This document shows positions 2,797-6,721 of a DNA stretch of 64,000 nt, in pieces. Both the position numbers and the translations under genes were made by a program. Numbering within the stretch: position 1 is the first letter of the stretch; each line of letters opens with the position of its first letter. The notes beneath the pieces were generated by a model. The model was not told where the DNA came from. It saw only the letters and a program-made list of their open reading frames with translations, and ran no database searches. The stretch spans positions 2,186 to 66,185 of the forward strand of contig WLNJ01000005.1 of NCBI GenBank assembly GCA_009699865.1, given 5' to 3'. The stretch is from Actinomycetota bacterium. Its GTDB lineage: Bacteria > Actinomycetota > Thermoleophilia > Solirubrobacterales > Solirubrobacteraceae.

Positions 2797-3417
2797 CTAC
2801 CAGCCGAATAGGCCGGGCTTGGTCCGCGTGCGACTCCACGGCGACCAGAGATTCCAAACGAGTCTGTCCACGCTCCCGACGTTCCTGATGCGTACCCAGA
2901 AGGCAACCGCGCCCCTGTGGAGAGTCACGGTTGAATTAAGCGGCACAGTCCGAGCTGACACGGGCAGGGCCGTGCCAGACGGCTGGTGTGGGGTGATGGA
3001 GTACTCAACCTCCCCGGGGCAAGGATCTGACTTGACAATTCGCAGCACGGAACGCTGAGTACCCGGATTCCGCTTCATGTTTACGGAGAGAGACTGCGGA
3101 ACATAGGTCCAGGAGCTACAGAAGTTGATCAAGTGGAGGGTCGATTCCTTTTGGATGTTGTAGTCGGAGACGGTACGGTCGTCGCCCAAGATCTTGCCTG
3201 CAAAGATCAAGCGGATCTGGCTCGGATGCTGCCCTGACCTGTCCTCAATCTCAGTTTTGACTCTGGATATCTTGTCGCTTGGTTCGACCTCAACGGTCAT
3301 GTGCCGTCCCACCTCATCCCTGACATAAAGCTGCATCCCCATCGCGCTCGCTGGGGCCACAGCGAAGATGACGGACACAAGAGTTGTCGCGAGGAGAAGG
3401 TGCTTGCGCATGGTCAT
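2797..3417 (-). CDS. secreted ubiquitin-homologue fusion protein, paralogue B (signal peptide + Ubl + C-terminal beta-rich domain)
   Basis: The preferred start, ATG at 3417, forms an ATGA overlap with the upstream gene's stop (3414-3417). The sequence runs [25 protein letters not shown], then MGMQLYVR...LIFAGK...[13 protein letters not shown]. Ungapped manual alignment to ubiquitin residues 1-70 gives 43/70 identities. There is no LRLRGG tail. Instead it has a ~115-aa Trp-rich domain ([10 protein letters not shown]...FWVRIRNVG...WSPWS). Confidence 0.8.
3327..3400. repeat. near-identical block shared by the two Ubl genes (copy 1)
   Basis: 3327-3400 aligns without gaps to 3962-4035 with 65/74 identities. 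The first 50 nt are 48/50 identical. The block covers the signal-peptide C-region and the first Ubl codons. Confidence 0.8.
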
Positions 3418-3995
3418 CCCGGAAGCATGGCTGACCATGTGGTCCACTTACCGACCTTGGAACCGATCCGAACCCAGCGTGGCTGGAGCTTGGACTTCCA
3501 GATAACGGTTGTTGAGTAGCTGGCGATCCCGTTGGCGTATGACGCGACTGTTGGTATGGGTTGTGACTCAGATGGCGCCGACAGTGAATTGGAGAACTGG
3601 ACTGTCAAAGCTGCTGCCCCAGCGCGGGTGTCGATCGAGTTGGACCACCACCAGGTAGTTGCAGTGGGAATGTTGACAAGCCAGGTCGCCGCTCTCGCGG
3701 GCTGGCGGGAGGCGGTTGGCCAGGCGGTGAGCGTTACTGGAACGTATGAGGACGGCCCGACGATCACATGTAGCGTGCCCTCCTTCTGGATGTTGTAGTC
3801 CTGAAGCGTGCGACCGTCTTGCAGCTCTGTTCCCTTGTAGAAGAGATGCTGCAATGCCGGGGCGGTGCCATACCTATCGAAGAGCTGCTCCTTGAGGAGT
3901 TCGATGCCGGCATTTGGTTCCACCTCAAGTGTCCAAGTCATGCCGACTTGGGTCTTCACAAAAAGCTGCATCCCCAACGCGCTCGCTGGGGCCAC
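3414..3995 (-). CDS. secreted ubiquitin-homologue fusion protein, paralogue A (Ubl + C-terminal beta-rich domain); start uncertain
   Basis: The ORF track starts at GTG 3995 ([15 protein letters not shown]...). The reading frame continues upstream as LSITKRLLLTAALASVIFA, a clear homologue of the paralogue B signal peptide, but with no ATG/GTG/TTG. The only candidate there is ATC at 4044-4046. The Ubl is 39/70 identical to ubiquitin residues 1-70 ([19 protein letters not shown]). The C-terminal domain is homologous to paralogue B (SSYVPVTL...[10 protein letters not shown]...WTTWS). Confidence 0.75.
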
Positions 3996-4035
3996 TGCGA
4001 AGATGACGGACGCGAGAGCTGCTGTGAGGAGGAGG
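3962..4035. repeat. near-identical block shared by the two Ubl genes (copy 2)
   Basis: Partner of 3327-3400 at a constant offset of 635 nt, with 65/74 identical. Confidence 0.8.
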
Positions 4036-4048
4036 CGCTTGGTGATGC

Positions 4049-5575
4049 TTAGGCGCCGTCGCGAAGTGTTGCGACGCCGCCGATCAGACCAAGGAACAGC
4101 GAGCCGTTGGGACCAATGTGAATCCCGGCGTAGTTGTTATTGAAGTTGAGGGTGCCAACGCCAGAGAGCTTGCTCCAGACCTTCTTGCCAGTTGAGGCAT
4201 CAATTGCCGTCCAGAACCATGCGTCTGAGTGGTTCGTCGTCTTGGTCTTTGTGAAGGCGTAGAGGAGGCCGTTGGTGACGGAGAGCTTGGGGACAACGGT
4301 GGGAGCGCTGTCAACTGTGTTCTTCCACTTGACCTTGCAGGTCTTGCCAGCTTTGGTCACATCAATACGCGTGAAGCCGGGCTTGGTTGTGCCACCTGAG
4401 GCAATGTAGTACGGGTTGACATAGCCGTAGTTGTTCTCAACGATCAGCATTGATGAGGATGCTGTCCCGGCGCCGATTAGTGAGTTCTCGGTGGAGCCAG
4501 CACCCTTTGTGAAGACTGGGACCTTGCAGGTCTGAACGCCGGTTGAGGCCTTGTAGACGACAACGTTCATCGGGTCAGCGTTATCGGTAATCGCGACCAA
4601 GCCGCCAGGCAACATGGTTGGTGTAGTGCCTGAGCCCGCATCAACTTGGCCTGGCTTGGTGAGGCCCGTGTTGCCGTAGTTCGCGCTCCTCCAGACCTGG
4701 TGGACTGTGCCGCCCACGGTGTCGAAGTGGTAGAGCGCCTTGTCACTGACGATGTAGACCCCGTCAGAGGCCACCATGAATGAGTTCTCGATCTCCTCGT
4801 GGAGAGTGATGCTGTGGACTGCGCCGGTGGTGGTATTGACCCACCCGACCTTGCCGTTTGTCTTGCTGACGAACCAGATGTTCCCAGCCCAGTCTGGAAG
4901 AGCCGATGACAGTCGCTCGCCAGCGACAGTGTCGGTCCCGGCGGTAAGGAAGCTGGTTAGGTCATATGTGGCGAGAGTGTCAAAGCTGGTCCCAGCGGTA
5001 TTGAGGGCATAGACGCGGATCTTGCGATCGTTTGTGGCTACTACGGGGTGGTCGTTCTTGTCGAGGAAGAAGTAGCCACCTCCGGTGAAGTCTTGGAAGA
5101 TGTTCGCCGCGGCCGGTCCTTCGCGGGTGGGAAGTGACAGCGAGGCGATCTGGTCAAGCGTGGTGGCATTGAGCATCCGTAGCGTTGGGCTGCCGAAGAT
5201 GGTTGGGCACACGGCAACGAGCCGGCCCTGAGTGTCGAAGGTGATGGAGGCACACAGACCAGGGATTGTCATCCCGAAGTTGTTTGTTGTCTGGACGAGG
5301 TTCTTGCCACGTGGGCCGGCACGCCAGTAGGCGTCTGTCATCCACGAGTCGTTGTGAAGGTTGGAGCGACCATTTGGTGCCATGCTCGGATTCTGGGGCG
5401 GGGCGGTGGCCGTGATCTTCTTGGTGGTCCAAGCCTTACCCGAGAAGTCAGGAAGAGTGGTCGCTACTGAGCCAGTGTCGGGGGCAATTGGGGTGACAGT
5501 TGCTGCTGCTGTTGCGGGCAGGGCAAGTACTCCCAGCAGTGCTGCCACAACGAATCTGTGACGCCGTGTCTCCAT
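4049..5575 (-). CDS. secreted beta-propeller-like protein (PQQ/BamB-like repeats), function unknown
   Basis: 508 aa. N-terminal signal peptide METRRHRFVVAALLGVLALPATAAA. The sequence is rich in Gly, Thr and Asn beta-strand segments, with a repeat signature such as WTAIDASTGKKVWSKL and LYAFTKT. It is the first gene of the low-GC operon. Confidence 0.65.
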   Translation of the reverse strand: METRRHRFVVAALLGVLALPATAAATVTPIAPDTGSVATTLPDFSGKAWTTKKITATAPPQNPSMAPNGRSNLHNDSWMTDAYWRAGPRGKNLVQTTNNFGMTIPGLCASITFDTQGRLVAVCPTIFGSPTLRMLNATTLDQIASLSLPTREGPAAANIFQDFTGGGYFFLDKNDHPVVATNDRKIRVYALNTAGTSFDTLATYDLTSFLTAGTDTVAGERLSSALPDWAGNIWFVSKTNGKVGWVNTTTGAVHSITLHEEIENSFMVASDGVYIVSDKALYHFDTVGGTVHQVWRSANYGNTGLTKPGQVDAGSGTTPTMLPGGLVAITDNADPMNVVVYKASTGVQTCKVPVFTKGAGSTENSLIGAGTASSSMLIVENNYGYVNPYYIASGGTTKPGFTRIDVTKAGKTCKVKWKNTVDSAPTVVPKLSVTNGLLYAFTKTKTTNHSDAWFWTAIDASTGKKVWSKLSGVGTLNFNNNYAGIHIGPNGSLFLGLIGGVATLRDGA

Positions 5576-5665
5576 CCCTTGCCAGACGCTACCGCATCAG
5601 ACCCCATTAGGGAACCGGTTGGTGTTGGCGCGACCGCCTTTGGTCGAGGGCGTACGCTCTTTGGG

Positions 5666-6721
5666 ATGGAAACTCGACGCGGACCAAAGGCCCTCTATCG
5701 GGCGTCAGGAGCAGATCTCCCATTTGACGATCCCCTGCGGTCGCATGCGACCGGGATGGAGGGGTACTTCTGGCGCATCACCCAGCCTGAGACTGGGCGG
5801 GTGGTTGTCGCACTGATTGGAGTCAATGATGATCGGGCCGGCGGGCACTGGGCCACGGTCGGGCTGGCAGGGCACCCAGGCGGGTTTCTGAAAGCTGCTG
5901 CGCTGGACGGGGCCACAGCGGACATGGAGGGCTTGGGAGCAAGAACAACCGACGGTCGCTTTGTTGCCAACGGACATTCAGTGCGCGTTGACCTTGGTGA
6001 TGCGGCCAAGCTCGAGCTTGAGGTTGATGATCAGGTCCTCTGGCCACGGCGCCGTTTGGGCGCCTCATCTTGGTTTCACTCCATTCCAGCGCTCAACCAG
6101 TATTGGCACCCACATCTGGTAGACGGGGTGGCCCGAGGGCATGCGGTCATCAACGGAGAAGAGTGGGATCTTGACGGCGCGCGGGTTTACGCCGAGAAGA
6201 ATTGGGGGCGCGGCGGCTTCCCGGCTGAATGGTGGTGGGGGCAAGCCCAGGGCTTTGAGGACGCTGACGCCTGTGTCTGTTTCGCTGGGGGTCGTGTCGA
6301 GACAGGGCCGCTTGGCGTTGAGGTCACCGCACTTGTTGTGCGGGCCGGGGGCAAGTTCCTGCGCCTTGGTGACCCCCTGCTCTCACCCGTGAAGGCTGAG
6401 GTCACGGATGAGGAGTGGCTCTTAACCGGGCGATCGCCTCGCTACCGCGTTGAGGTCCATGGGACTGCCCAACTTGGCGCCGCTCATGTCCTTCCAGTAC
6501 CCCTGCCCGAGGAGCGTCGCAACATCGCGGCAGCGCTCGAACACCTCGGCGCAACCATGACCGTGACCGTCAAGGAGCGCGGTAAGGGAGTTGTCTGGCG
6601 CGGGCATTCCGAGCTCGCTGGCCTTGAGCATGGTGGCCGTGACCGGGCGGAGGCTGAGGCGGGGCGGCGCGGTGGAACGCCCGATGGGTCGGCTGGTCCA
6701 GTTAAAAACTTCACCGACTGA
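5666..6721 (+). CDS. tocopherol-cyclase-family (VTE1-like) protein
   Basis: MEGYFWRITQPE resembles the EGWYF(K/R)V motif of tocopherol cyclases. YAEKNWGRGGFPAEWWWGQAQGF resembles their EKNWGxxFPxxWxWxQ motif. I chose ATG 5666 because the longer ORF start (5558) overlaps the divergent gene. Confidence 0.6.
   Translation: METRRGPKALYRASGADLPFDDPLRSHATGMEGYFWRITQPETGRVVVALIGVNDDRAGGHWATVGLAGHPGGFLKAAALDGATADMEGLGARTTDGRFVANGHSVRVDLGDAAKLELEVDDQVLWPRRRLGASSWFHSIPALNQYWHPHLVDGVARGHAVINGEEWDLDGARVYAEKNWGRGGFPAEWWWGQAQGFEDADACVCFAGGRVETGPLGVEVTALVVRAGGKFLRLGDPLLSPVKAEVTDEEWLLTGRSPRYRVEVHGTAQLGAAHVLPVPLPEERRNIAAALEHLGATMTVTVKERGKGVVWRGHSELAGLEHGGRDRAEAEAGRRGGTPDGSAGPVKNFTD

What the first reader, a model, noticed from the sequence alone, without database searches (positions are those of the whole stretch)
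2797..5575. Operon of a secreted beta-propeller and two secreted ubiquitin-homologue fusion proteins
Three co-directional minus-strand genes are packed tightly. There is an ATGA overlap at 3414-3417. The signal-peptide-like frame of the middle gene begins directly after the TAA stop of the first gene at 4049-4051.

Gene 1 has a Sec-type signal peptide and PQQ/BamB-like propeller repeats.

Genes 2 and 3 each encode a signal peptide ending ...[10 protein letters not shown]. Two residues later a complete ubiquitin-type domain begins (MQLFVKT... and MQLYVR...). It retains LIFAGK and DYNIQKE(S/G)TLH almost verbatim. A shared ~110-120 aa Trp-rich C-terminal domain follows (YVP...WVRI...W..WS).

My ungapped manual alignment to eukaryotic ubiquitin residues 1-70 gives 43/70 and 39/70 identities. 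The only bacterial secreted protein I know with this level of identity to ubiquitin is Bacteroides fragilis BfUbb, which also has a signal peptide and lacks the GG terminus.

I do not recognise this architecture as a described system: a duplicated Ubl fused to an extra domain and coupled to a secreted propeller. Possible roles are an interbacterial toxin, a eukaryote-directed ubiquitin mimic, or a surface or adhesion module.
Basis: partly seen in the sequence, partly recalled or inferred. Interest (0 to 1): 0.9.

Follow-up and report, generated by a model that had tools for sequence, protein, structure and literature searches.

The report
Exported ubiquitin-domain proteins beside a propeller
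A freshwater actinobacterium carries an operon for a secreted propeller protein and two exported proteins that begin with a eukaryote-type ubiquitin domain, and these belong to a large, apparently undescribed class of bacterial proteins that place near-perfect ubiquitin outside the cell.

Summary
Three tightly packed minus-strand genes encode a Sec-exported 8-bladed BamB/YxaL/Rv3035-like propeller and two proteins built as signal peptide, then ubiquitin (Pfam PF00240 at 64 and 72 bits; 39/71 and 43/70 identity to human ubiquitin), then a ~110-aa beta-rich tail.

Two corrections apply. Gene 2's signal peptide has no canonical start codon: ATC sits where relatives have TTG or GTG. The two C-terminal tails are not detectably homologous.

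Context changes the picture. The propeller is ancestral at this syntenic locus (more than 4000 homologues). Ubiquitin genes were inserted downstream in one freshwater Solirubrobacterales-like clade, in 0 to 3 copies. Single-copy relatives keep 86-95% identity to eukaryotic ubiquitin.

A scan of 185,579 prokaryotic species genomes gave 423 ubiquitin loci. In the 75 non-clade loci examined, a signal peptide usually ends directly before Met1 of a ubiquitin 82-99% identical to human. Downstream are surface anchors such as autotransporter barrels, SLH, T9SS and IPTL-CTERM domains. Purifying selection is strong (dN/dS about 0.07).

Only BfUbb and BoUbb were found in the literature. The best reading is extracellular ubiquitin display. 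The target is unknown.

The parts
4049..5575 (-). Gene 1: a 508-aa exported 8-bladed beta-propeller of the BamB/YxaL/Rv3035 fold type. The TAA stop is at 4049-4051.
   Evidence: ORF. AlphaFold model has pLDDT 83.4 and pTM 0.87. Foldseek PDB top hits are 7evf/7eq5 YxaL, 9p3g/9p3f Rv3035 and BamB, with probability 1.0 and target-normalised TM 0.72-0.76. There are 4295 homologues at E<=1e-3, mostly unnamed actinobacterial proteins.
5501..5575 (-). Signal peptide of gene 1 (METRRHRFVVAALLGVLALPATAAA|T).
   Evidence: Sequence. Hydrophobic core has mean Kyte-Doolittle 3.0. Residues 1-24 have pLDDT below 50 in the model. The RR pair is not conserved in the family consensus, so this is Sec-type rather than Tat-type.
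5576..5755 (.). Intergenic region between gene 1 and the divergent tocopherol-cyclase-like gene; presumed promoter region of the operon.
   Evidence: Gene calls on the identical Logan contig L001 place the divergent gene start at window position 5756. The sigma-70 consensus scan found nothing.
3414..4046 (-). Gene 2: signal peptide, ubiquitin domain and the clade-conserved C-terminal beta-sandwich (210 aa counted from ATC). The TGA stop is at 3414-3416.
   Evidence: Translation. Pfam PF00240 scores 64.1 bits. Orthologues are listed.
4044..4046 (-). ATC codon 2 nt after the gene 1 stop; the likely near-cognate, translationally coupled start of gene 2.
   Evidence: It aligns with the second ATG of gene 3. 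Orthologues have TTG 1-2 nt after the propeller stop (L008, L004) or an overlapping GTG (L002). The ATC is identical in contigs from at least four samples.
3972..4046 (-). Signal peptide of gene 2 ([25 protein letters not shown]|M).
   Evidence: Public gene callers start this gene at ATG 3971 and so omit the signal peptide.
3759..3971 (-). Ubiquitin domain of gene 2. It is 39/71 identical to human ubiquitin. L8 is Q, I44 is F and K48 is T. K6, K27, K63 and H68 are kept. There is no RGG tail.
3417..3758 (-). C-terminal domain of gene 2 (114 aa, 9 Trp). It is the clade-conserved type, with the motif ...GAAALTVQ...SYANGIA.YST.V.W.SKL.PRW.R.G.K.GKWT.W.
   Evidence: Alignment A5. AlphaFold gives an all-beta model with pLDDT 70.5. 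Foldseek gives only weak FN3/Ig-like hits, with E>=0.06. dN/dS against orthologues is 0.13-0.45.
2797..3417 (-). Gene 3: signal peptide, ubiquitin domain and a different beta-rich tail. It is 206 aa from ATG 3417, or 204 aa from ATG 3411. The TAG stop is at 2797-2799.
   Evidence: Pfam PF00240 scores 72.1 bits. The exact protein is in public data as an 'unannotated protein [freshwater metagenome]'.
3337..3417 (-). Signal peptide of gene 3 ([27 protein letters not shown]|M). The ATGA overlap with the gene 2 stop is at 3414-3417.
   Evidence: Codons 11-30 are 54/60 nt identical to gene 2, against about 48% identity in the ubiquitin part.
3127..3336 (-). Ubiquitin domain of gene 3. It is 43/70 identical to human ubiquitin. 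RLIFAGK and [11 protein letters not shown] are verbatim. L8 is E. I44, K48, K63 and H68 are kept. There is no RGG tail.
2800..3126 (-). C-terminal domain of gene 3 (~109 aa, 7 Trp, 2 Cys). It resembles Big_9/cadherin-like repeats of giant adhesins.
   Evidence: An exhaustive phmmer search gave 23 hits. One is an orthologue at 91% identity. The rest are repeats in 0.5-7 kaa proteins. Of the four checked against Pfam, two are built of Big_9/Cadherin_4/5 repeats, one has weak Big_9 beside He_PIG Ig domains, and one is an RCC1/Big_13 protein. Pfam does not hit the domain directly. It shows no homology to the gene 2 tail.

Best explanation
The locus is an operon for three exported proteins in a freshwater Solirubrobacterales-like (Thermoleophilia) actinobacterium.

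Gene 1 is a Sec-secreted, probably non-enzymatic, 8-bladed scaffold propeller. It is ancestral at this chromosomal position.

Genes 2 and 3 are lineage-specific additions downstream of it. In each, a Sec signal peptide is removed at, or two residues before, Met1 of a ubiquitin beta-grasp domain of eukaryotic origin. The mature protein therefore exposes a ubiquitin domain at its free N-terminus, carried on a ~110-aa beta-sandwich.

The two proteins are diverged members of a broad class that I could not find described. In that class bacteria export a near-canonical ubiquitin as the outermost module of a secreted or envelope-anchored protein.

Inferred steps:
- The beta-sandwich serves as stalk or attachment, possibly docking on the co-expressed propeller or on the cell wall.
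- Ubiquitin is the functional, outward-facing ligand.
- Gene 2 is made at a low level by termination-reinitiation at ATC.
- After duplication, the two copies in this genome evolved under relaxed constraint.

The molecular target of the displayed ubiquitin is not known.
For: Shown for the window:
- The genes are tightly packed (a 2-nt gap and a 4-nt overlap).
- The ubiquitin-domain assignment is secure.
- All three proteins have signal-peptide features.
- The propeller fold is supported, and its nearest solved relatives are extracytoplasmic docking scaffolds. Rv3035 forms a stable periplasmic heterodimer with FecB (PMC13041763).

Shown for the clade:
- The same slot between the propeller and the DUF1295 gene holds no ubiquitin gene (L013), one (L006, L008), two (window) or three (L004/L096). 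L002/L019 has a gene with two tandem ubiquitin domains at its start.
- The first ubiquitin gene is always on the propeller's strand and starts between -4 and +40 nt from its stop.
- Single-copy ubiquitins are 86-95% identical to human.
- The gene 2 tail is under purifying selection.

Shown for the wider class:
- 423 ubiquitin-encoding stretches were found in GTDB species genomes.
- In 70 of 73 evaluated loci, a tripartite signal peptide ends directly before Met1.
- Ubiquitin identity to human is 82-99%.
- The downstream modules are envelope anchors suited to the host. They include the autotransporter beta-domain, with ubiquitin as the only recognised domain of the passenger. They also include IPTL-CTERM, PEP-CTERM-like tails, three SLH domains, the T9SS C-terminal domain, OmpA, and Big_9/cadherin and FN3 domains.
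- Median pN is 0.09 against pS 0.90, dN/dS is about 0.07, and ubiquitin GC3 tracks host GC with r=0.92. These are long-resident bacterial genes under strong constraint, not contamination.
- Ruminococcus albus 7 plasmid pRUMAL01 carries the same build.
Against: - No SignalP run and no experimental localisation are available.
- The gene 2 signal peptide depends on an ATC start. If initiation occurs instead at GTG 3995 or ATG 3971, the product would be cytoplasmic.
- No anchor motif (LPXTG, transmembrane segment or SLH) is present in the window proteins, so they may simply be released.
- The propeller link could be promoter hitch-hiking. The slot lies between a gene end and a convergent gene, and propellers are not adjacent to ubiquitin genes in other phyla.
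- The model of the gene 2 tail has only moderate confidence and matches no family.
- The window's ubiquitin domains have lost parts of the canonical L8/I44 surface, so whatever constrains the canonical members may not apply here.
- Only the best 80 of the 423 loci were inspected, and ranking by a query that includes a signal peptide favours loci with leaders. One inspected locus (L093) has no leader.
Confidence: 0.6

Rival explanations
1. BfUbb-like diffusible antibacterial toxins. The exported ubiquitin proteins would be released, taken up by competing bacteria and inhibit a periplasmic or envelope target, with the variable tails setting target range.
For: BfUbb and BoUbb are the only characterised bacterial ubiquitin homologues. 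They have an SPI signal peptide cleaved exactly at Met1 and lack GG (PMC5705921, PMC11467351). The locus shows copy-number variation and conserved leaders with diverging mature parts, as is often seen in toxin families. Dyella species encode a free signal peptide plus Ub(1-73).
Against: These are not stand-alone 76-aa proteins. There is no C-terminal cysteine or disulfide, which is reported as crucial for BfUbb: gene 2 has no Cys at all. No immunity-like small gene lies in the operon. The SusCD/ButCD import route is specific to Bacteroides. In the wider class ubiquitin is tethered to the producer's own surface, the opposite of a diffusible toxin. dN/dS is below 1 throughout.
Confidence: 0.12
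2. Ubiquitin serves only as an inert, very stable, fast-folding N-terminal cap or solubility module. The function would lie in the C-terminal beta-sandwiches (adhesion or carbohydrate binding), and the link with the propeller would be accidental co-transcription.
For: The tails are Ig/FN3/cadherin-like, typical of adhesins. The window's ubiquitin surfaces have drifted, with dN/dS 0.24-0.58 against 0.10-0.19 in single-copy relatives. The insertion slot favours read-through expression.
Against: In many lineages ubiquitin is the whole cargo, with only an autotransporter barrel or a C-terminal sorting signal after it. A cap role would not hold 82-99% identity to eukaryotic ubiquitin across phyla with dN/dS about 0.07. 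Single-copy members of this very clade keep 86-95% identity.
Confidence: 0.15
3. Gene 2 is a decaying or cytoplasmic copy. Loss of its start codon would mean it is either untranslated or made from an internal start as a cytosolic ubiquitin-like protein, so only gene 3 would be exported.
For: No ATG, GTG or TTG opens the signal-peptide frame. Gene callers start at ATG 3971. Gene 2 has the most diverged ubiquitin surface.
Against: The ORF is intact. The signal-peptide codons are kept in frame and are 90% identical in nucleotides to gene 3 over codons 11-30. The tail has dN/dS 0.13-0.45. Orthologues also use weak starts (TTG or GTG) at the same coupled position. The ATC is fixed in several samples.
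Confidence: 0.1
4. An intracellular ubiquitin-like conjugation or tagging system, of the Bil/Bub type or analogous to Pup.
For: The host is an actinobacterium, a phylum that has Pup and proteasomes. A ubiquitin-family domain is present.
Against: Signal peptides are present. There is no free GG or GGQ C-terminus, because ubiquitin is followed by a fused domain. No E1/ThiF, E2/UBC or JAB/DUB gene occurs among the neighbours' Pfam annotations. The sequence is eukaryote-type ubiquitin, not Pup and not the divergent Bil ubiquitin-like proteins.
Confidence: 0.02

Closest known systems
BfUbb / BoUbb, the secreted ubiquitin homologues of Bacteroides fragilis and B. ovatus
   Same: These are bacterial genes of eukaryotic ubiquitin type, 61-63% identical to human ubiquitin, which is the same range as the window's 55-61%. 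They have an SPI signal peptide with the mature protein aligned to Met1, no GG terminus and are extracytoplasmic. In B. fragilis, ubb also sits next to beta-propeller genes (PMC5705921).
   Different: BfUbb is a stand-alone 76-aa diffusible toxin. Its activity needs a C-terminal disulfide, import through the SusCD-type ButCD transporter and a periplasmic PPIase target (PMC11467351). The window proteins are two-domain fusions without that cysteine, occur in a Gram-positive-type host and are encoded downstream of a propeller in one operon.
Secreted ubiquitin carboxyl-extension proteins of cyst nematodes (for example Globodera rostochiensis GrUBCEP12)
   Same: The order is the same: signal peptide, ubiquitin, C-terminal extension. 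They are exported from the producer (described in PMC5705921).
   Different: These are eukaryotic effectors delivered into plant cells. The extension is a 12-aa peptide released by host processing at an intact ubiquitin C-terminus. The window proteins lack RGG and carry folded ~110-aa domains.
Eukaryotic ubiquitin precursors (polyubiquitin; Ub-L40 and Ub-S27a fusions)
   Same: They are the probable ultimate source. Relatives keep LRLRGG followed by a fused domain (L004 and L018), and L002/L019 have two ubiquitins in tandem.
   Different: The eukaryotic precursors are cytosolic, are cleaved by deubiquitinases and feed a conjugation system. The bacterial genes have signal peptides, host-like codon usage and mostly a mutated G76.
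BamB / YxaL / Rv3035 eight-bladed PQQ-like propellers
   Same: They share the fold of gene 1 (Foldseek probability 1.0, target-normalised TM 0.72-0.76). They are exported and act as docking scaffolds. Rv3035 is an actinobacterial envelope protein that binds FecB (PMC13041763).
   Different: Sequence identity is only 12-15%. Gene 1 is about 110-140 residues longer. Pfam PQQ_2 is below its cut-off and no NCBIfam model matches. No partner or function is known for this family of more than 4000 members.
Bacterial ubiquitin-like conjugation systems (Bil/Bub operons, CBASS Cap2) and Pup
   Same: They involve a beta-grasp or ubiquitin-like tag in bacteria. This comparison rests on general knowledge and on PMC10557695, which appeared.
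   Different: Those systems are cytoplasmic, need a free C-terminal Gly and adjacent E1/E2/DUB or PafA/Dop genes, and their ubiquitin-like proteins are not close in sequence to ubiquitin. None of this applies here.

Membership tests
Ubiquitin family (Pfam PF00240) | Profile HMM score above the curated cut-off | tested here: met
   Gene 2 scores 64.1 bits and gene 3 scores 72.1 bits against a cut-off of 25.4. Identity to human ubiquitin is 39/71 and 43/70.
Ubiquitin family (Pfam PF00240) | Beta-grasp fold of the domain itself | not tested
The fold is inferred from 55-61% identity and from conserved core residues (I3/L3, V5, L15, V17, I23, L43, L50, L56, Y59, I61, L67).
Ubiquitin as a conjugatable modifier | Free C-terminal LRLRGG, plus E1/E2 enzymes | tested here: not met
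   The tails read VGPSSY and NFCSSW and continue into a fused domain. No ThiF, UBC or JAB genes occur among the neighbours.
BfUbb-type secreted antibacterial ubiquitin | SPI signal peptide with the mature N-terminus at ubiquitin Met1 | tested here: met
   The sites are PASALG|M and PASAMG|M, or ASA| two residues earlier. The heuristic -3/-1 rule and a hydrophobic core are satisfied. SignalP was not available.
BfUbb-type secreted antibacterial ubiquitin | Stand-alone ~76-aa mature protein with a C-terminal cysteine or disulfide needed for toxicity | tested here: not met
   The mature proteins are about 180-185 aa. Gene 2 has no Cys, and gene 3 has none inside its ubiquitin domain. The feature is taken from PMC11467351.
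BfUbb-type secreted antibacterial ubiquitin | Killing of related strains through SusCD import and PPIase binding | not testable with these tools
   This needs culture assays. The host has no outer-membrane SusCD system as far as its lineage suggests.
BamB/PQQ-like 8-bladed beta-propeller (gene 1) | Sequence profile match (PF13360 PQQ_2) | tested here: inconclusive
   The score is 24.8 bits against a cut-off of 27.6. There is no NCBIfam hit and no PDB sequence hit.
BamB/PQQ-like 8-bladed beta-propeller (gene 1) | Eight-bladed propeller fold similar to solved members | tested here: met
   The model has pTM 0.87. Foldseek hits to YxaL, Rv3035, BamB and tetrathionate hydrolase have E 5e-11 to 1e-9 and target-normalised TM up to 0.76.
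PQQ-dependent dehydrogenases | PQQ- and metal-binding catalytic residues | not tested
   These enzymes appear only as lower-ranked, longer Foldseek hits, with target-normalised TM 0.41-0.45. The active site was not examined.
Clade-specific ubiquitin plus C-domain family (Solirubrobacterales-like MAGs) | C-terminal ~105-aa domain with the motif GAAALT.Q...SYANGIA.Y....W.SKL.P.W.R.G...GKWT.W | tested here: met
   Gene 2 aligns over its full length at 46-69% identity. Gene 3 does not.
Clade-specific ubiquitin plus C-domain family (Solirubrobacterales-like MAGs) | Position directly downstream of the propeller gene in the PALP ... DUF1295 syntenic block | tested here: met
   Window, L004/L096, L006, L008, L015, L002 and L019/L020. 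L013 is an empty site.
Pan-bacterial 'signal peptide - ubiquitin - anchor' class (proposed here) | Signal peptide ending at ubiquitin Met1, followed by a recognisable envelope-anchoring module | tested here: inconclusive
   The signal-peptide and ubiquitin part is met. The window tails are beta-sandwiches without a recognised anchor motif. Other members carry PF03797, PF00395, PF18962, PF18203 or PF00691.

The most novel reading that the evidence does not exclude
Bacteria from many phyla export a ubiquitin of eukaryotic origin and display it on their surface. The phyla seen include Pseudomonadota, Bacteroidota, Bacillota, Actinomycetota, Verrucomicrobiota, Gemmatimonadota and Lentisphaerota. 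The ubiquitin is kept almost invariant by selection. The purpose would be to engage ubiquitin-recognising machinery of eukaryotes such as grazers or hosts, or an equally conserved partner, which would amount to an unrecognised inter-kingdom mimicry system. The window's operon would be the Thermoleophilia branch of that system. Here the module is docked to a secreted propeller, has duplicated, and is diversifying behind a conserved signal peptide.
Probability: 0.3. Interest if true: 0.95.

Novelty: new variant of a known kind. Interest (0 to 1): 0.8.

Why it matters
Ubiquitin is regarded as a hallmark of eukaryotes. [quoted passage not shown]

This locus led to a different picture. Hundreds of bacterial species appear to carry long-resident, strongly constrained ubiquitin genes behind signal peptides. 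The attached modules are surface anchors. The carriers include cultured strains such as Ruminococcus albus 7, Saccharibacillus sacchari DSM 19268, Dyella species, Rhodoferax lacus, Leeia oryzae and Pseudovibrio denitrificans.

If this holds, two questions become directly testable:
- Why would a bacterium need canonical ubiquitin outside the cell?
- Does it act on protist grazers, on hosts or on other bacteria?

The work also exposes a systematic annotation error. Gene callers start these genes at ubiquitin Met1 and lose the signal peptide, and RefSeq attaches protein-ubiquitination GO terms to them.

For the window itself, the value is a natural series of 0, 1, 2 and 3 copies, plus a gene with tandem ubiquitin domains, at one syntenic site. 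That series shows how the module is gained, duplicated and relaxed.

Tried and rejected
- The full-length homologue search with gene 3 was swamped by eukaryotic polyubiquitins and gave no family information beyond the exact public copy.
- A 'shared' C-terminal domain was rejected. BLASTP gave no alignment and hhalign gave probability 0.1%. MAFFT lines up WVRI..VG, but this is not significant.
- Sequence-based naming of the propeller gave nothing usable. Pfam was below its cut-off, and NCBIfam and PDB sequence searches found no match.
- The word-indexed search with the gene 2 tail found only 4 proteins. The JGI metagenome scan found only 2 loci. The clade family is therefore rare in those data.
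The 4-row alignment gave only a moderate model and non-significant fold matches.
- The promoter and terminator scan was at chance level. Rfam and tRNA scans of the window found nothing.
- No second ubiquitin gene or propeller paralogue lies elsewhere in the window.
- A phage origin was not supported: there was no hit in 50,697 phage records.
- The conserved ~330-aa neighbour of proteobacterial ubiquitin-autotransporter genes reminded me of SET-domain motifs (..ELINHS....Y....F.FF.NY.F). Pfam at E<=10 and a PDB profile search gave no support, so I do not claim it.
- A Tat signal for gene 1 (TRRHRF) was rejected because the RR pair is not conserved in the family.
- A frameshift or read-through fusion of gene 1 and gene 2 was rejected. 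The frames differ, and an internal signal peptide would make no sense when orthologues have their own start codon.

Full report
**1. What is in the window**

On the minus strand lie three ORFs: 4049-5575 (508 aa), 3414-4046 and 2797-3417.
- Gene 1 ends with TAA at 4049-4051.
- Two bases later the gene 2 frame reads ATC ACC AAG CGC CTC..., which translates as [32 protein letters not shown]....
- The TGA stop of gene 2 overlaps the first ATG of gene 3 (ATGA, 3414-3417).
- Gene 3 reads [33 protein letters not shown]....

The region is convergent with a DUF1295 gene that ends at 2792. It is divergent from a tocopherol-cyclase-like gene whose called start corresponds to window position 5756.

A Logan assembly (L001) is 99.99% identical to the window over 12 kb. 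Contigs from at least four samples carry the same gene 2. The sequence is therefore not an assembly accident.

**2. The ubiquitin domains are real**
- Pfam PF00240 scores 64.1 bits (gene 2) and 72.1 bits (gene 3) against a cut-off of 25.4.
- BLASTP against human ubiquitin gives 39/71 and 43/70 identities without gaps.
- Gene 3 keeps RLIFAGK and [11 protein letters not shown] verbatim. Gene 2 keeps only [11 protein letters not shown].
- Neither has the RGG tail.
- On the canonical surface, gene 3 has L8 changed to E but keeps I44, K48, K63 and H68. Gene 2 has L8Q, I44F and K48T.

**3. The leaders**

All three N-termini have basic residues, a hydrophobic core (mean Kyte-Doolittle 2.6-3.0 over 10 residues) and small residues at -3 and -1. 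SignalP was not available, so this is a heuristic result.

The gene 2 leader has no ATG, GTG or TTG. The first canonical start (GTG 3995) lies inside the hydrophobic core.
- The ATC at 4046-4044 aligns with the second ATG of gene 3.
- In relatives, the first ubiquitin gene starts with TTG 1-2 nt after the propeller stop (L008, L004) or with a GTG overlapping it (L002).
- I therefore infer translationally coupled initiation at a weak or near-cognate codon.
- Public gene calls begin these genes at the ubiquitin Met and lose the leader.

**4. The C-terminal tails are two different domains**

BLASTP aligns genes 2 and 3 at 52% identity over the leader and ubiquitin only.

The gene 2 tail belongs to a well-conserved ~105-aa domain in relatives, with the motif ...GAAALTVQ...SYANGIA.YST.V.W.SKL.PRW.R.G.K.GKWT.W.
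- A profile of that domain against the gene 3 tail gives hhalign probability 0.1%.
- An AlphaFold model of the gene 2 tail is all-beta with eight strands, at moderate confidence (pLDDT 70.5, pTM 0.64).
- It finds only weak FN3/Ig-like matches (E>=0.06, TM<=0.5).

The gene 3 tail was searched exhaustively against 1.84 billion representative proteins.
- It hits one orthologue and otherwise repeats inside long proteins of 0.5-7 kaa.
- Of four of those checked against Pfam, two are built of Big_9/cadherin-like repeats, one has weak Big_9 beside He_PIG Ig domains, and one is an RCC1/Big_13 protein.

Both tails thus look like extracellular beta-sandwich modules, but they are not a shared duplicated domain.

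**5. The propeller**

By sequence, gene 1 has no family above threshold.

With 43 homologues, AlphaFold gives pLDDT 83.4 and pTM 0.87, with residues 1-24 disordered.

Foldseek against the PDB puts these first, with probability 1.0 and target-normalised TM 0.72-0.76:
- the secreted Bacillus propeller YxaL;
- the mycobacterial envelope protein Rv3035, also solved in complex with FecB;
- BamB.

These are docking scaffolds rather than enzymes. Rv3035 forms a stable periplasmic heterodimer with FecB (PMC13041763).

The family is large: 4295 proteins at E<=1e-3, named only as hypothetical, from Solirubrobacterales, Baekduia soli and 'Actinomycetes bacterium' MAGs.

**6. History of the locus**

Relatives with the same flanks (PALP, tocopherol-cyclase-like, propeller | DUF1295, acyltransferase, peroxiredoxin) show a series:

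| Locus | Ubiquitin genes in the slot |
|---|---|
| L013 (propeller 58% identical) | none; 7 nt between the propeller stop and the DUF1295 gene |
| L006/L016, L007, L008/L017 | one |
| Window | two |
| L004/L020/L096 | three, the third with a 300-aa Ig-rich tail |
| L002/L019 | a gene with two ubiquitins in tandem before the C-domain (downstream not examined) |

More distant propeller homologues sit in other contexts without ubiquitin. The propeller is therefore ancestral, and the ubiquitin genes are later insertions that then expanded.

Ubiquitin identity to human tracks copy number:
- 86-95% in single-copy genomes. P0267 differs from human at 4 of 73 positions and ends LRL-SS.
- 46-79% in multi-copy genomes.
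- 55% and 61% in the window.

Rough Nei-Gojobori estimates give dN/dS of 0.10-0.19 among single-copy genes and 0.24-0.58 for the window copies. This indicates relaxed constraint rather than demonstrated positive selection.

The gene 2 tail has dN/dS 0.13-0.45, so the gene is maintained.

Between the two window paralogues, codons 11-30 (the end of the leader plus MQL) are 54/60 nt identical, whereas the ubiquitin codons are about 48% identical. This points to gene conversion or to selection confined to the leader.

**7. The wider class**

I scanned one genome per 185,579 prokaryotic species with patterns from the family alignment. The scan gave 499 matches, of which 423 encode a relative. The best 80 were fetched.

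Five are the actinobacterial clade (Solirubrobacterales or 'Actinomycetes' lake MAGs). The other 75 come from very diverse bacteria, many on long contigs of cultured strains.

Findings in these loci:
- Ubiquitin is 82-99% identical to human.
- In 70 of 73 evaluated loci, the residues before Met1 form a tripartite signal peptide whose -3/-1 site abuts Met1. Position -1 is Ala in 62 of them.
- The G75-G76 pair is usually altered (LRLRGS, LRLRGY, LRLRGT, LRLRGP) or the tail is shortened. Three Dyella species have a stop codon after LRL.

What follows ubiquitin is an envelope-anchoring or stalk module:

| Module after ubiquitin | Where seen |
|---|---|
| Autotransporter beta-domain, with ubiquitin the only recognised domain of the passenger | Rhodoferax, Loktanella, Marivivens, Pseudovibrio, Methylophilaceae; a cluster of 15 loci |
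| IPTL-CTERM | L024 |
| Short Pro-rich linker, transmembrane segment and Arg-rich tail, resembling PEP-CTERM-type sorting signals | Halieaceae, Gemmatimonadota |
| Three SLH domains | Saccharibacillus, Cohnella |
| T9SS C-terminal domain | Bacteroidota |
| OmpA-like peptidoglycan-binding domain | Nanopelagicales |
| Big_9/cadherin, FN3, Listeria-Bacteroides repeat, CBM_X2 | various |

Synonymous sites among 67 such genes are saturated (median pS 0.90), while pN is 0.09. Unsaturated pairs give dN/dS of about 0.07. Ubiquitin GC3 (0.17-0.96) follows the GC content of the host locus with r=0.92.

These are therefore long-resident bacterial genes under strong purifying selection. They are not eukaryotic contamination. 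The one clear contaminant is L061, a 530-bp contig carrying a 100% identical ubiquitin followed by a basic extension (GGAKKR..., 80 aa), which looks like a eukaryotic ubiquitin-ribosomal-protein fusion.

Ruminococcus albus 7 plasmid pRUMAL01 encodes the same build. RefSeq calls it 'ubiquitin family protein' and attaches ubiquitination GO terms.

Caveats:
- Only 80 of the 423 loci were inspected.
- The ranking favoured loci with leaders.
- One locus (L093) has no leader.

**8. Literature**

The library holds 28 papers that mention BfUbb.
- They describe a 76-aa secreted toxin 63% identical to ubiquitin, with SPI cleavage exactly at Met1 (PMC5705921).
- Later work covers its import by the SusCD-type ButCD transporter, its PPIase target, the need for a C-terminal disulfide, and a second homologue, BoUbb (PMC11467351).

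Eight further searches on bacterial, secreted, surface-displayed or horizontally acquired ubiquitin found nothing on the architecture described here. NCBIfam release 20 has no model for it. Absence from this library is not proof of absence from the literature.

**9. Interpretation**

Shown:
- This is an operon of three proteins with export signals.
- It contains two true ubiquitin domains of eukaryotic type at the mature N-terminus.
- The association with the propeller is clade-specific.
- The proteins share their build with a broad bacterial class of exported ubiquitin proteins.

Inferred:
- Ubiquitin is the outward-facing functional module, because in many lineages it is the only cargo of an anchor.
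- The window's beta-sandwich tails act as stalk or attachment.
- They may dock on the co-expressed scaffold propeller.
- Gene 2 is translated from ATC by reinitiation.

The target is unknown. The near-invariance of the whole ubiquitin surface in canonical members suggests a partner as conserved as the eukaryotic ubiquitin-binding machinery. The habitats (lake and ocean plankton, rumen, rhizosphere) are rich in protists. This is conjecture. The window's own copies have lost part of that surface.

The BfUbb toxin model, an inert-cap model, a decaying gene 2 and an intracellular conjugation system are weighed as rivals. Each is less well supported.

**10. Verdict**

The finding is real and interesting. 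It needs two factual corrections: the start codon of gene 2, and the non-homologous tails.

It is best filed as a new fusion variant of the secreted bacterial ubiquitin homologue. Its chief value is that it opens onto a widespread, seemingly unrecognised phenomenon: exported, often surface-anchored, near-canonical ubiquitin in bacteria.

Noticed in passing
L021-L095 (GTDB species genomes; for example L021 6037-7218, L042 6079-8808, L038 6070-11313, L059 6064-6615): Near-canonical ubiquitin (82-99% identical to human) sits directly behind a signal peptide. It is followed by autotransporter, SLH, T9SS, IPTL-CTERM, PEP-CTERM-like or OmpA anchors in many phyla. In total, 423 loci were detected in 185,579 species genomes.
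   Followed up: partly
L024 4658-5821, L065 7237-8235, L039 7195-8193, L031 7240-8238, L089 7195-8193, L035 4793-5782(-), L088, L051, L050, L025, L040: A conserved ~330-aa protein (35-44% identity, no signal peptide) lies next to the ubiquitin-autotransporter or ubiquitin-IPTL gene in 11 loci, mostly proteobacterial by record title, in three different orientations. It has no Pfam, NCBIfam or PDB match. Motifs such as ELINHS and Y...F.FF.NY.F recall SET domains, but that is unsupported.
   Followed up: partly
L023 6070-6288, L028 6070-6288, L043 6028-6246: Three Dyella species encode a signal peptide plus ubiquitin that ends with a stop codon right after LRL, in place of R74. This gives a free exported Ub(1-73), the closest parallel to BfUbb.
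   Followed up: no
window 3957-4016 versus 3322-3381: The signal-peptide ends of genes 2 and 3 are 54/60 nt identical, while the adjoining ubiquitin codons are about 48% identical. The same pattern appears in L004 paralogues 2 and 3, which share the leader MILRRLIPLVV... This suggests gene conversion or selection confined to the leader.
   Followed up: partly
window 3971 and 4046; L008 653 and 719; L004 2159 and 2231: Public gene calls start these genes at the ubiquitin Met (giving 184-185 aa) and miss the signal peptide, because the true starts are TTG, GTG or ATC coupled to the upstream stop. JGI names one of them 'ubiquitin C'. RefSeq calls the R. albus protein 'ubiquitin family protein' and attaches ubiquitination GO terms.
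   Followed up: yes
L002 3836-4231; L019 793-1602: In the closest relatives (propeller 95-96% identical), the first gene is signal peptide, ubiquitin, a second ubiquitin and then the C-domain. This tandem di-ubiquitin recalls a polyubiquitin origin. L004 and L018 copies keep LRLRGG before the fused domain.
   Followed up: partly
L061 1-530: A 530-bp contig in the Paracoccus marinus NBRC 100637 assembly carries a ubiquitin 100% identical to human, followed by GGAKKR.... It looks like a eukaryotic ubiquitin-ribosomal-protein fusion and is most likely eukaryotic contamination.
   Followed up: no
L093 5341-6024 and 6049-6732: An Acidimicrobiales MAG has two tandem ubiquitin genes (69% and 92% identical to human) with a 152-aa beta-rich tail. 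No signal peptide or upstream start is present, making this an exception to the exported pattern.
   Followed up: no
L098 3926-4666 (Ruminococcus albus 7 plasmid pRUMAL01, WP_013483628.1): A cultured rumen bacterium carries a signal peptide, ubiquitin (88% identical to P0267, the clade ubiquitin used as query) and a ~150-aa tail on a 420-kb mobilizable plasmid. It sits in a run of small hypothetical genes, with a dockerin protein 1.2 kb downstream. It would be a convenient experimental model.
   Followed up: partly
L008 5413-6174: A heliorhodopsin gene (PF18761) lies 4 kb from the ubiquitin locus in a related Solirubrobacterales MAG. This is consistent with a sunlit freshwater lifestyle for the clade.
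   Followed up: no
literature: PMC5705921: In B. fragilis, the ubb island is also bordered by beta-propeller genes and contains a truncated one. This may be coincidence, but it parallels the propeller-ubiquitin adjacency seen here.
   Followed up: no
window 5558-6721: The longest-ORF start of the tocopherol-cyclase-like gene (GTG 5558) would overlap the start of gene 1. Gene calls on identical contigs use either position 5756 (321 aa) or 5579 (380 aa). The size of the divergent promoter region is therefore uncertain.
   Followed up: no
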